Assembly: GCA_934778205.1 (NCBI GenBank)
Contig: CAKVOD010000006.1
Coordinates: 23,050-87,049, forward strand
Length of the DNA stretch: 64,000 nucleotides
Origin: an uncultured Clostridia bacterium
GTDB taxonomy: Bacteria; Bacillota; Clostridia; Christensenellales; UBA1242
Direction: 5' to 3'
The notes under the pieces were generated by a model. It did not search any database and was not told the DNA's origin. It saw only the letters and a program-made list of their open reading frames with translations. Shown here one piece after another: positions 49,734 through 51,079 of this stretch (its first letter is position 1; each line of letters opens with the position of its first letter). A program made the translations under genes and the position numbers.

Positions 49734-50864
49734 TTATATCATTATGCTAGAATTAATGTTTGGCGTCGCGATTGTGTATGTTATGCTGGCGTCCGCAAAG
49801 GTTGTGAGCGTGACATTGCGCCCGCTTGCCGTTGCGTTCGTTAGTGACTCAAATGTTATGTTCCCAAAATATCCAAACACAAAGCAAACTTTGTATGGCG
49901 TTGTGGCATAATCTTCCACAGGTGCAAGCGTCAGCGTTTCAGTCGCTTTTGTTGGCGCGAACTGTAGATAAATGTTGTCGCCTTTATATATGTATATCAT
50001 ATATTGCTGACTGCCGAAATCTTGGCAAGTCAATGTCAGCGTGCATTTCGCTAATGTCCATTTTGCGTAGAGTGAAATCGTTGTGTAGGTTGTGCCTGCG
50101 CTGAGCGTTTCAACTAACGCACTCGCGCTTGAGCAAGTCGAGTCGTTCAAGTACCAACCGCCAAATACGTACCCCGCTTTGGTTGGCGTGTCAAGCGTTG
50201 TAGCGCTCCCATTTATGTGTGTTGTTGCGTACTCTCCTACGTGCTTTCCGCTGAACTCCGCCCCGCCTTGGTCATAATAATTGATTGCAACAGTACTTGT
50301 GTCCCACTCAATGTATAGTGGATAAACATTAATAACACTCACACCATCGTTTCCTATATTATCACACGAACCATATGATGCCTTATCATTCCAACTAAAC
50401 GTTGCTGTTCCAGTTATCGTTTTTATTTCATTCCCAGAAGAATCTTTCATATACAGGCGTTTAATTTTTTTACCATATATATTTAAAGCGCTATTTAATT
50501 CATCAAAATATAGCGTACATTCTGTGCTGTTTTCGCTCCCCGTAATTGACCTATGACCTATATATCCCAACCAAGAATATTTGTAGTCATCATTAGAAAG
50601 ATTATACGCCTCACTTGTCGCCTTCTTCCAATTAGTCATAGGAGTCCCGTAATCTTCTTCAAATAAAATACCAATATAATAACTCCATTCACTAGCCGCC
50701 CCTTGAACATTTCCATATTTTTTTTCATACAAAGTCGTGCCGCTGAACGCAAAAAGACACAAAAGCAAGAATGCTATTGCTGTTGCAAATAAGTTTCGGC
50801 ATCGAGTTTGCGCCGTTAAATTATTAATTTTTATATTATTTTCATTTCTCTTAAAATCTTCCAT
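49734..50864 (-). CDS. variable membrane-anchored surface protein, family member 4, with Listeria-Bacteroides type repeat (short form; long form to ATG 51037 needs +1/-2 nt in the tract)
   Basis: The ORF track gives 49734..51017. An internal ATG at 50864 is followed by MEDFKRNENN...LFATAIAFLLLCLFAFSG. AGYVFGGWYLND....LYAKWT is the flg_new / List_Bact repeat signature. Confidence 0.75.
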   Translation of the reverse strand: MEDFKRNENNIKINNLTAQTRCRNLFATAIAFLLLCLFAFSGTTLYEKKYGNVQGAASEWSYYIGILFEEDYGTPMTNWKKATSEAYNLSNDDYKYSWLGYIGHRSITGSENSTECTLYFDELNSALNIYGKKIKRLYMKDSSGNEIKTITGTATFSWNDKASYGSCDNIGNDGVSVINVYPLYIEWDTSTVAINYYDQGGAEFSGKHVGEYATTHINGSATTLDTPTKAGYVFGGWYLNDSTCSSASALVETLSAGTTYTTISLYAKWTLAKCTLTLTCQDFGSQQYMIYIYKGDNIYLQFAPTKATETLTLAPVEDYATTPYKVCFVFGYFGNITFESLTNATASGRNVTLTTFADASITYTIATPNINSSIMI

Positions 50865-51001
50865 ATTACCAACCTTTTTTGCACATTTTGTTGCTTTAGT
50901 ACTTTCATTGTTGGTAATATGTGCATTTTTACTATTTTTTATGAACTTTTTATGTGTTTTTTCTACAAGTTTTCCACAACTATGTGGATAACTTTTATAT
51001 G

Positions 51002-51015
51002 CCCCCCCCCCCCCC
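51002..51015 (-). repeat. homopolymeric G14 tract (C14 on + strand)
   Basis: Counted as 9 + 5 C. On the minus strand it reads GAGGGAAAGAAA ATG ATT AAG AAC TTA ACT AAA T-G14-CATATAAAAG. Confidence 0.9.
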
Positions 51016-51070
51016 ATTTAGTTAAGTTCTTAATCATTTTCTTTCCCTCACTTATAAATTATTCGTTTTT

Positions 51071-51079
51071 AGTTTACCA
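51071..51079 (-). promoter_or_regulatory. extended -10 element TGGTAAACT
   Basis: It has the same sequence class and the same spacing (34 nt) to the SD-linked ATG as in loci 1 and 2. Confidence 0.45.

What the first reader, a model, noticed from the sequence alone, without database searches (positions are those of the whole stretch)
50864..51079. Locus 4: divergent family member with G14, out of frame in the opposite sense
On the minus strand the elements read TGGTAAACT (extended -10, 51079..51071), GAGGGAAAGAAA, ATG 51037, ATT AAG AAC TTA ACT AAA T, then G14 (51015..51002). From this ATG the frame reads W-G-G-G-G-H-I-K.. and stops after 12 more codons. The long ORF is in the frame reached with 12 or 15 G, so it needs +1 or -2, where loci 1-3 need -1 or +2. 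Because the run follows AAAT, an ATG-G13 in the long frame exists (51017, the ORF-track start), but it has no SD. The leader shares little sequence with loci 1-3, yet it keeps the same architecture. This includes a small hairpin (CCACA-tagt-TGTGG) where the others have TTTGCAAG-ata-CTTGCAAA, and an internal ATG (50864) before the TM. Conservation of architecture without conservation of sequence argues that the layout is functional.
Basis: partly seen in the sequence, partly recalled or inferred. Interest (0 to 1): 0.7.

Follow-up and report, generated by a model that had tools for sequence, protein, structure and literature searches.

The report
Poly-G on/off switch, surface protein gene
A run of 14 G's just after the start codon of a membrane-anchored surface-protein gene of an uncultured human-gut Clostridia bacterium is very probably a slippage-driven on/off switch, because the same gene occurs in other metagenome assemblies with 12, 13 or 14 G's and otherwise identical DNA; this is a well-known kind of switch found in a new organism and gene family.

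Summary
The minus strand carries a sigma-70 promoter (TTGATA, 17 nt, TGgTAAACT), an SD (GAGGG), ATG 51037, seven more codons and G14 (51015-51002). The 433/434-aa ORF is in frame only with G12 or G15.

This is not chance. The window has no G/C run of 7-12 and four runs of 13-14, all placed the same way.

- Other assemblies hold this locus with 0 mismatches in about 3 kb of flank and with G12 (intact 433-aa protein), G13 or G14. Several contigs break at the tract.
- The species has at least six such loci, and related species have more.

Locus 4 is therefore a slipped-strand contingency locus that controls a single-pass, N-in/C-out surface protein with a List-Bact (InlB B-repeat) domain.

- Locus 4 is homologous to loci 1-3 in its promoter and N-terminal module (BLASTP 8e-8). 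It is not just architecturally similar.
- The CCACA/TGTGG hairpin is not conserved. The shared hairpin is a 12-bp stem (50921-50910 with 50873-50862) that covers the internal SD/ATG, and it shows compensatory changes across copies.

This is a new member of a known kind. The leader may be a portable switch cassette, because it is fused to unrelated ectodomains.

The parts
51094..51099 (-). -35 hexamer TTGATA of the locus-4 promoter
   Evidence: TTGATA, 17 nt, TAAACT, TG present. It is conserved in L001, L002, L021 and in loci 1 and 2.
51071..51079 (-). Extended -10 element TGgTAAACT
   Evidence: The same TTGTGGTAMAMTAA block lies upstream of both leader types.
51045..51049 (-). Shine-Dalgarno GAGGG, 7 nt before the ATG
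   Evidence: Duplex with the anti-SD is -8.9 kcal/mol.
51016..51037 (-). Start codon and leader ATG ATT AAG AAC TTA ACT AAA T (MIKNLTK-W)
   Evidence: The same leader is translated in frame in P0161, P0163, P0009 and P0166.
51002..51015 (-). Hypermutable poly-G tract. It is G14 here (off). G12 and G15 are on.
   Evidence: G12 (L026/L030) and G13 (L025/L029) occur with identical flanks.
50995..50997 (-). TAA stop reached in the G13 reading frame
   Evidence: Read directly. The product is 13 aa.
50963..50965 (-). TAG stop reached in the G14 reading frame (24-aa peptide)
   Evidence: The TGTAG is conserved in L021, L002 and L001.
50967..50994 (-). It is probably a by-product of the P-H-x-C-G codons.
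   Evidence: It is -11.4 kcal/mol here but -6.9 and -2.9 in relatives.
50865..51001 (-). Coding segment for the K/N/C-rich cytoplasmic N-terminal module. It is translated only in the on phase.
   Evidence: It is stop-free only in the long frame, with 2 and 8 stops in the other frames (P about 0.01). It is homologous to the loci 1-3 module.
50910..50921 (-). 5' arm CATATTACCAAC of the conserved 12-bp stem
50862..50873 (-). 3' arm GTTGGTAATATG of the stem. It contains the internal ATG (50864-50862) and abuts the SD-like AAGG (50876-50873).
   Evidence: Gene callers start the G13 allele here (P0160, 376 aa).
50745..50792 (-). Single transmembrane segment (LFATAIAFLLLCLFAF)
   Evidence: Translation. 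The AF2 model has a helix at residues 72-107.
49737..50744 (-). Beta-rich ectodomain. It includes a List-Bact/InlB B-repeat (50061-50228) and a conserved C-terminal domain ending ..ATPNINSSIMI.
   Evidence: Pfam PF09479 at 30 bits against a cut-off of 27. TIGR02543. AF2 model. C-terminal domain homologs.
49702..49724 (.). Palindrome GTAGCGTGGACTACCCACGCTAC just after the stop codon (49734-49736). It looks like a terminator.

Best explanation
Locus 4 is a contingency locus. Slipped-strand mispairing at replication changes the length of the poly-G tract that lies 22 nt into the coding sequence. That sets whether ribosomes starting at SD/ATG 51037 read through into the long ORF.

- With G12 or G15 they make a 433/434-aa type II membrane protein. 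It has a cytoplasmic K/N/C-rich N-terminal module, one TM segment, and an outside beta-rich ectodomain with an InlB-type B-repeat. This is probably an adhesin-like surface antigen.
- With G13 or G14 they stop after 13 or 24 codons.
- A conserved 12-bp stem further downstream pairs codons HITN with the internal SD/ATG region. In off cells it probably keeps the internal start closed, so that off is tight. In on cells elongating ribosomes melt it.

The promoter, leader, tract and N-terminal module form a homologous cassette found in front of unrelated ectodomains at six or more loci per genome. This lets each surface protein switch independently.

What is shown: the anatomy, the frame logic, tract-length polymorphism with identical flanks, intact on alleles, homology of the cassette, and conservation and covariation of the stem.

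What is inferred: the slippage mechanism and its rate, the surface exposure and function of the protein, and the role of the stem.

The confidence of 0.85 is for the poly-G phase-variation switch itself. For the stem acting as a lock on the internal start I would give about 0.4.
For: - Tract and frame logic.
- Promoter and SD.
- Non-random run spectrum, with 1.3e-4 runs of 13 or more expected.
- Same locus with 0 mismatches in 985 + 2001 nt of flank and G12 (L026), G13 (L025) or G14 (window).
- The 90% cluster of this protein has 433-aa (2 contigs), 376-aa (5 contigs) and 427-aa members. The sister cluster (P0002) shows the same three lengths.
- A third allele, L031, is in frame at G14.
- Contigs end exactly at the tract (L005, L032, start of L001).
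- On-state proteins that read MIKHLTKWGGGA.. in another species (P0009, P0166).
- The segment between the tract and the internal ATG is open only in the long frame in 8 of 8 copies.
- Cassette homology. Shuffling of ectodomains.
- Stem: leader fold z = -4.3. It is found in 7 copies. 89% of cells are paired against 29-53% when slid, and 3 pairs have double changes. RNAalifold gives the same stem.
- Protein: PF09479 and TIGR02543, TM helix and beta-rich model, weak fold matches to Gram-positive adhesins, pilins and InlB.
- Precedent in a gut Gram-positive commensal: PMC9187656.
Against: - No reads were available, so heterogeneity within one population and reversibility are not shown.
- Tract lengths come from short-read assembly consensus, which is error-prone at G12-14.
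- Seven of the eight tracts at the other loci and in related species are in off lengths, as is this locus on 6 of its 9 contigs (5 of G13, 1 of G14). This is compatible with the one third expected to be on, but it gives no evidence for selection of on cells.
- Locus 1 is G13 in all three assemblies seen.
- The stem persists in two copies that have lost the internal ATG (AAG and ATT in L001). Masking that ATG therefore cannot be its only role.
- Some family members (L005, L022) lack both the stem and the internal ATG.
- The function and surface exposure of the protein rest on one weak domain hit and a model with pLDDT 65.
Confidence: 0.85

Rival explanations
1. The real gene starts at the internal ATG 50864 and is made in all cells. 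Under this reading the poly-G ORF upstream is a regulatory leader, or it adds an optional N-terminal extension, so the tract toggles between a long and a short isoform rather than on and off.
For: - An SD-like AAGG/GGAG lies 7-8 nt before an ATG in 7 of 9 cassette copies.
- Cassette-less homologs (P0168/L003, P0007) begin about 24 aa before the TM, at the equivalent position.
- Recombination breakpoints between cassette and cargo fall at this ATG.
- Gene callers use this start in the G13 allele (P0160).
Against: - The ATG and part of its SD sit inside a 12-bp stem. The 105-nt context folds at -16 to -20 kcal/mol, which should strongly reduce free initiation.
- Two copies have lost the ATG yet keep the long ORF.
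- The upstream segment is under coding constraint.
Confidence: 0.25
2. The off lengths are leaky because the frame is restored during expression rather than in the DNA. Either RNA polymerase slips on the G/C run, or ribosomes make a -1 frameshift on G GGG GGG helped by the hairpin 7-8 nt downstream. Under this reading G14 is a low-level state, not a null.
For: - At G14 the long frame is the -1 frame of the ATG 51037 frame.
- The tract is a perfect X XXY YYZ slippery run.
- A hairpin of -11.4 kcal/mol starts 7-8 nt after it.
- ATG 51017 is also in the long frame at G14.
Against: - The hairpin is not conserved in strength or spacing in relatives with the same G14 (L021 and L002 at -6.9 with about 13 nt spacing; L001 at -2.9).
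- Loci 1-3 at G13 would need +1 or -2.
- DNA-level length variants exist and are sufficient.
- ATG 51017 has no SD.
Confidence: 0.15
3. The tract or its length differences are sequencing or assembly artefacts (two-colour Illumina poly-G, homopolymer miscalls), or the gene is a frameshifted pseudogene.
For: - Poly-G and poly-C junk is seen at one contig end (L001 1-90).
- Homopolymers of 12-14 are error-prone, as discussed in PMC9187656.
- L022 shows TTGTTGTTGGTTG in place of the tract at about 5x coverage.
Against: - The tract is internal and lies at the same position in 10 or more assemblies from different studies, at four loci in one window.
- It always lies 22-24 nt after an SD+ATG.
- Each length state is seen on several contigs.
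- On alleles give intact conserved proteins.
- The ORF is conserved in frame.
Confidence: 0.04

Closest known systems
Campylobacter jejuni poly-G contingency loci (the 'phasome'; PMC6321876)
   Same: Long G/C homopolymers in a low-GC genome. Several independent intragenic tracts per genome. Frameshift on/off switching of surface-related genes. Tract lengths of about 8-13.
   Different: The host is a Gram-negative epsilonproteobacterium. The targets are mostly glycosyltransferases and capsule or flagellar modification genes. There is no shared promoter-leader-tract cassette and no N-terminal module or downstream stem. Here the tracts sit at a fixed distance after the start codon of paralogous single-pass membrane proteins.
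Bifidobacterium breve UCC2003 pilus G-tract switch (PMC9187656)
   Same: A human-gut Gram-positive commensal. An intragenic G10-G12 tract whose length decides whether translation continues into the rest of a surface-structure gene. The reference annotation shows the off length.
   Different: The host is a high-GC actinobacterium. The tract splits the first gene of sortase-pilus operons. There are two loci rather than a dispersed family. That switch was validated experimentally by maximum-depth sequencing, which has not been done here.
Neisseria opa genes (CTCTT repeats in the signal-peptide coding region)
   Same: A multigene family of surface adhesins in which each paralog carries a slippage-prone repeat in the 5' leader-coding region. 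Expression is constitutive transcription with translational frame control. Copies switch independently and recombine with each other.
   Different: The repeat is a pentamer, not a homopolymer. The products are outer-membrane beta-barrels with cleaved signal peptides. This comparison rests on my own knowledge and was not tested here.
Mycoplasma homopolymer switches (M. hominis Vaa poly-A; M. agalactiae gsmA G-tract, the latter cited in PMC9187656)
   Same: Wall-less or monoderm low-GC bacteria. A homopolymer near the 5' end of a surface protein or surface-polysaccharide gene. Frameshift on/off switching.
   Different: The organisms and proteins are different, and the tracts are mostly poly-A. 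No cassette is shared by unrelated cargo domains.

Membership tests
Simple-sequence-repeat (slipped-strand) translational phase-variable gene / contingency locus | A homopolymer or short repeat long enough to be hypermutable (G/C of 8-9 or more) | tested here: met
   G14 at 51015-51002. The next-longest G/C run outside the four loci is 6.
Simple-sequence-repeat (slipped-strand) translational phase-variable gene / contingency locus | The repeat lies inside the ORF, downstream of a credible start, so that length changes shift the frame between a full-length product and early stops | tested here: met
   SD+ATG 51037. G12 and G15 give 433/434 aa. G13 and G14 give 13 and 24 aa.
Simple-sequence-repeat (slipped-strand) translational phase-variable gene / contingency locus | Tract length varies among otherwise identical genomes or cells | tested here: met
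   G12, G13 and G14 with 0 mismatches in about 3 kb of flank in three assemblies. Each state is on several contigs. Variation within one population was not testable because there are no reads.
Simple-sequence-repeat (slipped-strand) translational phase-variable gene / contingency locus | Reversible, high-frequency switching of protein expression in clonal cultures | not testable with these tools
   The organism is uncultured. No reads or expression data are available.
Simple-sequence-repeat (slipped-strand) translational phase-variable gene / contingency locus | The product is surface-exposed or involved in host or phage interaction (typical of the class, not strictly required) | tested here: inconclusive
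   One TM segment with a beta-rich C-terminal part and a List-Bact repeat. Fold matches to adhesins and pilins are only weak, with E of 1.6e-3 or worse.
Listeria-Bacteroides repeat (Flg_new / InlB B-repeat, PF09479, TIGR02543) proteins | A match to the family model above its curated cut-off | tested here: met
   PF09479 at 30.0 bits against a cut-off of 27, residues 271-326. TIGR02543 at 28.5 bits against 20.95.
Programmed -1 ribosomal frameshift site | A slippery heptamer followed at 5-9 nt by a conserved stable structure | tested here: not met
   The slippery run is present and the window has a hairpin of -11.4 kcal/mol at 7-8 nt. The hairpin is not conserved in strength or spacing in relatives.
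Known RNA families (Rfam 15) | A covariance-model match at the gathering score in the leader or stem region | tested here: not met
   The only hit in the window is a tRNA at 10416-10489.

The most novel reading that the evidence does not exclude
The 5' module is a portable translational phase-variation cassette. It comprises the promoter, SD, 8-codon leader, poly-G tract, a roughly 45-100-codon cytoplasmic spacer ORF, and a stem that locks the cargo gene's own SD/ATG.

Under this reading recombination grafts the cassette onto the native start codon of different surface-protein genes. The cargo's own initiation site is silenced by the stem. Expression then depends on ribosomes arriving in frame from the tract, either by read-through or by coupled re-opening of the stem. 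Any cargo gene thereby becomes an independently switching contingency gene.
Probability: 0.3. Interest if true: 0.7.

Novelty: new member of a known kind. Interest (0 to 1): 0.5.

Why it matters
It gives evidence, from public assemblies alone, that an uncultured human-gut Clostridia lineage runs a Campylobacter- or Neisseria-style set of poly-G contingency genes on its surface proteins. There are at least six independently switchable loci.

This matters in three ways:
- MAG annotation: these genes are called truncated, or are started at wrong ATGs. The same gene appears as 376, 427 and 433 aa.
- Assembly: contigs break at the tracts.
- Biology: it bears on how gut commensals generate surface heterogeneity against IgA, phage or niche variation.

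If the cassette reading holds, it would be a compact natural device that makes an arbitrary gene stochastic.

Tried and rejected
- JGI metagenome scans gave nothing. The locus-4 leader pattern found no match. The loci 1-3 leader pattern found only two unrelated chance hits. The lineage seems absent from that collection.
- A profile of the N-terminal modules (A2) searched against the 5.8-billion-protein set returned no hits at E<=0.01, probably because the profile is short and compositionally biased.
- The exhaustive representative search with P0001 was swamped by multi-repeat Flg_new proteins. It gave no new cassette-bearing N-termini, only more proteins sharing the C-terminal domain.
- The GTDB genome scan found three true relatives, labelled only 'Clostridia bacterium'. 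No finer taxonomy was obtained. Cluster look-ups carried no names.
- The AF2 model was of moderate quality (pLDDT 65) and Foldseek against PDB gave no match with E<=0.001. The ectodomain function remains generic.
A look-up to extend beyond the right end of the window failed.
- Anti-sigma factor (zf-HC2) and KxYKxGKxW signal readings of the N-terminal module were considered and dropped. There is no Pfam or NCBIfam support, and the TM lies about 70 aa downstream.
- Control by the divergent response regulator and histidine kinase (51168-52882) was considered and dropped. Other cassette copies have unrelated neighbours.
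Full report
**1. Observation**

The -35 hexamer TTGATA is at 51099-51094. After a 17-nt spacer comes TGgTAAACT at 51079-51071; the consensus scan also reports this promoter, with TG. The SD GAGGG is at 51049-51045 and the ATG at 51037. 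The leader ATT AAG AAC TTA ACT AAA T follows, then G14 at 51015-51002.

From that ATG the present sequence encodes MIKNLTKWGGGGHIKVIHIVVENL and stops at TAG 50965-50963. With G13 it stops after 13 codons. With G12 or G15 it runs 433/434 aa to 49734. ATG 51017 plus G13 is in the long frame, which is why the ORF list begins there. It has no SD.

The tract is not a chance feature. In this 39% GC window the G/C runs number one of length 6, none of 7-12, three of 13 and one of 14. The expected number of runs of 13 or more is 1.3e-4. All four long runs are poly-G on the minus strand, lie 22-24 nt after an SD+ATG, and need G12 or G15 for the long ORF.

**2. Does the tract length vary?**

The protein has few relatives, all from gut metagenomes. 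Its 90% cluster contains three length classes: 427 aa (this window, the ATG 51017 call), 376 aa (starting at the internal Met, 5 contigs) and 433 aa (MIKNLTKWGGGAYKS.., 2 contigs).

I fetched the DNA for these. L026 has G12 and L025 has G13. Both have 0 mismatches to the window in 985 nt upstream and 2001 nt downstream. So one and the same locus exists as G12 (on), G13 (off) and G14 (off).

Other observations agree:
- The sister cluster (P0002, 74-76% identity) shows the same three length classes. Its G14 copy was read directly in L021.
- A further allele at the same chromosomal site (L031, next to the identical response regulator) has T-G14-TATAAAG and is in frame at G14.
- Several assemblies end exactly at the tract: L032, L005 (which begins GGGGCATATAAAAG) and the start of L001.
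- In a more distant species (L001, 43.5% GC) the same leader reads MIKHLTKW-GGG-A.. in frame at G12. It gives a 516-aa protein, P0009, and the related P0166.

The main caveat is that these are assembly consensus lengths from short reads. Heterogeneity within one population could not be tested.

**3. Family size**

The window has four loci. The Hadza contig L002 carries two more: G13 with a loci 1-3 type leader at 3439-3451, and G14 with a locus-4 type leader at 10003-10016. L002 comes from the same sample as L027, which holds locus 1 at 100% protein identity. In addition P0165, the internal-start form of the L002 gene, and P0160 are both recorded on contigs whose longest is 457,869 bp. The species therefore very probably has at least six loci.

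The loci are scattered among housekeeping genes such as MnmA, class II FBA, AddAB, UvrD and FtsH. GTDB representatives with relatives are labelled only 'Clostridia bacterium'.

**4. Relationship to loci 1-3**

In fact the promoter block (AAAACATTTGATAttttt...TTGTGGTAMAMTAA) is alignable between the two leader types. The N-terminal 110 residues of locus 4 and locus 1 are homologous by BLASTP at E=8e-8, with a shared ..IKNS..KN(A/V)(H/R)ITN...K.KCA..V.NME.. block before the TM. Locus 4 is thus a diverged paralog of the same 5' module.

The module is shuffled relative to the rest of the protein:
- P0008 and P0009 combine a locus-4 type module with an ectodomain homologous to that of locus 3 (3e-27).
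- The L002a gene combines a loci 1-3 type leader with the C-terminal domain of locus 4 (..AFVFGYYGNLTF..NPRINSTIII).
- Cassette-less homologs of the locus-4 ectodomain (L003/P0168, P0007) start about 24 aa before the TM, at the position of the internal Met.

**5. Is the stretch between the tract and the internal ATG coding?**

In all eight cassette copies examined this AT-rich segment (120-246 nt) has no stop in the long frame and 2-15 stops in each other frame. Shuffles give P(no stop) of 0.001-0.04 per copy. Together with the intact on-state proteins, this shows that the N-terminal extension is translated when the tract is in frame.

**6. Hairpins**

The CCACA-tagt-TGTGG hairpin is real in the window (50994-50967, -11.4 kcal/mol). 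It weakens to -6.9 and -2.9 kcal/mol in relatives and coincides with the conserved P-H/K-x-C-G codons. It does not align with TTTGCAAG-ata-CTTGCAAA of loci 1-3. I do not regard it as a shared element.

A different structure is shared. Folding the leader RNA (z = -4.3) pairs CATATTACCAAC (50921-50910) with GTTGGTAATATG (50873-50862). This is a perfect 12-bp stem whose 3' arm contains the internal ATG and abuts its SD-like AAGG. The equivalent stem occurs in:
- L021;
- L002b and L031, each with two G-U pairs;
- L001, with a C:G to A:U double change;
- loci 1 and 2, as 8 + 5 bp with a 2-nt bulge;
- locus 3, as ACTACTAC/GTAGTAGT.

On the 7-sequence alignment 89% of cells pair, against 29-53% when the partner is slid by 1-3 columns. 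Three pairs carry changes on both sides. The covariation score is reached by only 9 of 500 shuffles. RNAalifold predicts the same stem independently. With seven related sequences this is suggestive, not conclusive.

Both L001 copies have lost the ATG (to AAG and ATT) but keep the stem. L005 and L022 lack both the stem and the ATG. Masking the internal start is therefore my preferred role for the stem, but not a proven or exclusive one.

**7. The protein**

The domain order is as follows:
- N-terminal cytoplasmic K/N/C-rich module with no family match.
- One TM helix.
- A beta-rich ectodomain modelled at pLDDT about 90 for residues 120-250.
- One List-Bact/InlB B-repeat (PF09479 at 30 bits against a cut-off of 27; TIGR02543).
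- A conserved C-terminal domain ending ..TPNINSSIMI, which recurs in many uncharacterised proteins.

Fold matches are weak (best E 1.6e-3). They point to Gram-positive adhesins and pilins and to InlB. I infer a surface-exposed, adhesin-like antigen.

**8. Mechanism and rivals**

The best-supported explanation is slipped-strand translational phase variation, with on at G12/G15 and off at G13/G14. The conserved stem probably tightens the off state by keeping the internal initiation region closed where ribosomes no longer arrive.

The rivals are:
- a constitutive short isoform from ATG 50864, with a phase-variable N-terminal extension (not excluded);
- leaky expression by transcriptional slippage or -1 frameshifting at G14 (possible, but the stimulator is not conserved);
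- an artefact or a pseudogene (rejected: the position is consistent in ten or more independent assemblies, on alleles are intact, and the ORF is conserved).

**9. Comparison and novelty**

The logic is that of the Campylobacter poly-G phasome (PMC6321876), the Bifidobacterium breve pilus G-tract (PMC9187656) and, from my own knowledge, Neisseria opa and Mycoplasma Vaa. Two full-text searches found no description of such loci in gut Clostridia.

I class it as a new member of a known kind. The more novel possibility is that the 5' module is a portable switch cassette with a lock on the cargo's own start. That reading is compatible with the data but unproven.

Noticed in passing
window 49290-49700; also 47019-47130, 46592-46687, 57509-57826, 34042-34154: A GC-richer intergenic repeat of about 93-117 nt. 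It occurs in about four tandem copies between the locus-4 stop and the HtrA-like gene, and is dispersed in other intergenic regions at 68-91% identity. It looks like a REP- or MITE-like element of this genome.
   Followed up: partly
window 27336-29579 (locus 3 product, residues ~615-765): The locus-3 phase-variable protein ends in a Hint / intein-like (bacterial intein-like) domain (..CCITEDT...HNALC). The Pfam hits are sub-threshold (PF14890 27.5 bits, PF01079, PF14623). This suggests autoprocessing of a surface protein.
   Followed up: no
L022 56-110 (P0005, ERZ26858253, coverage ~5): A homolog in which the TG12 tract is replaced by TTGTTGTTGGTTG, in frame, with a GTG start and no recognisable promoter. 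It is either a decayed, locked-on tract or G-to-T sequencing errors in a low-coverage contig end.
   Followed up: no
L031 1-310 (Hadza ERZ4562240): An allele of the same locus, next to the identical response regulator, whose post-tract sequence is TATAAAGAATATCC.. It is in frame at G14 instead of G12 or G15. The 40 nt after the tract are a hotspot of mosaic, mostly non-synonymous differences among alleles (AYKSYPHSC / ASRDCPHKC / ASKDYPHSC / YKEYPQNC).
   Followed up: partly
L001 1-90: The contig begins with about 85 nt of C-rich junk. This leads straight into the post-tract sequence of another locus-4 type gene (a 649-aa product). It is an assembly artefact at a poly-G tract. Contigs L005 and L032 also terminate at tracts, so these loci fragment MAGs.
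   Followed up: partly
L001 5875-5915 and L002 9895-9935: An inverted repeat AAATATCAAATG-(11-12 nt)-CATTTGATATTT overlaps the -35 box of the cassette promoter in two relatives. It could be an operator or the terminator of the upstream gene. It is not present upstream of the window's locus 4.
   Followed up: no
window 49737-50060 and proteins P0024-P0156: The C-terminal domain of about 110 aa (..Q(Q/R)YMIYIY.G....CFVFGY.G.I.F....GRN......I.Y.I.TP.INSSI(M/I)(I/V) at the very C-terminus) recurs in many otherwise different uncharacterised proteins. Loci 1 and 2 end in a similar N-x-x-I/V-I/V-I/V-COOH motif. It may be an undescribed C-terminal module.
   Followed up: partly
window 5405-5422, 8096-8113, 29622-29639 (just after the tracts of loci 1-3): In loci 1-3 the tract is followed by TATAATGATG / TATACTGATG. 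The poly-G, which can pair with the anti-SD at -11.7 kcal/mol, therefore sits 4-7 nt before ATG codons that open only a short out-of-frame peptide (MMQKMIV*). These could be decoy starts. Locus 4 lacks this feature.
   Followed up: no
window 51168-52882: An OmpR-type response regulator and a HAMP/HisKA histidine kinase are transcribed divergently from locus 4. Their own extended -10 promoter is at 51120-51148, and the two promoters share a 130-nt intergenic region. The pairing is conserved at this locus across assemblies but not at other cassette copies.
   Followed up: partly
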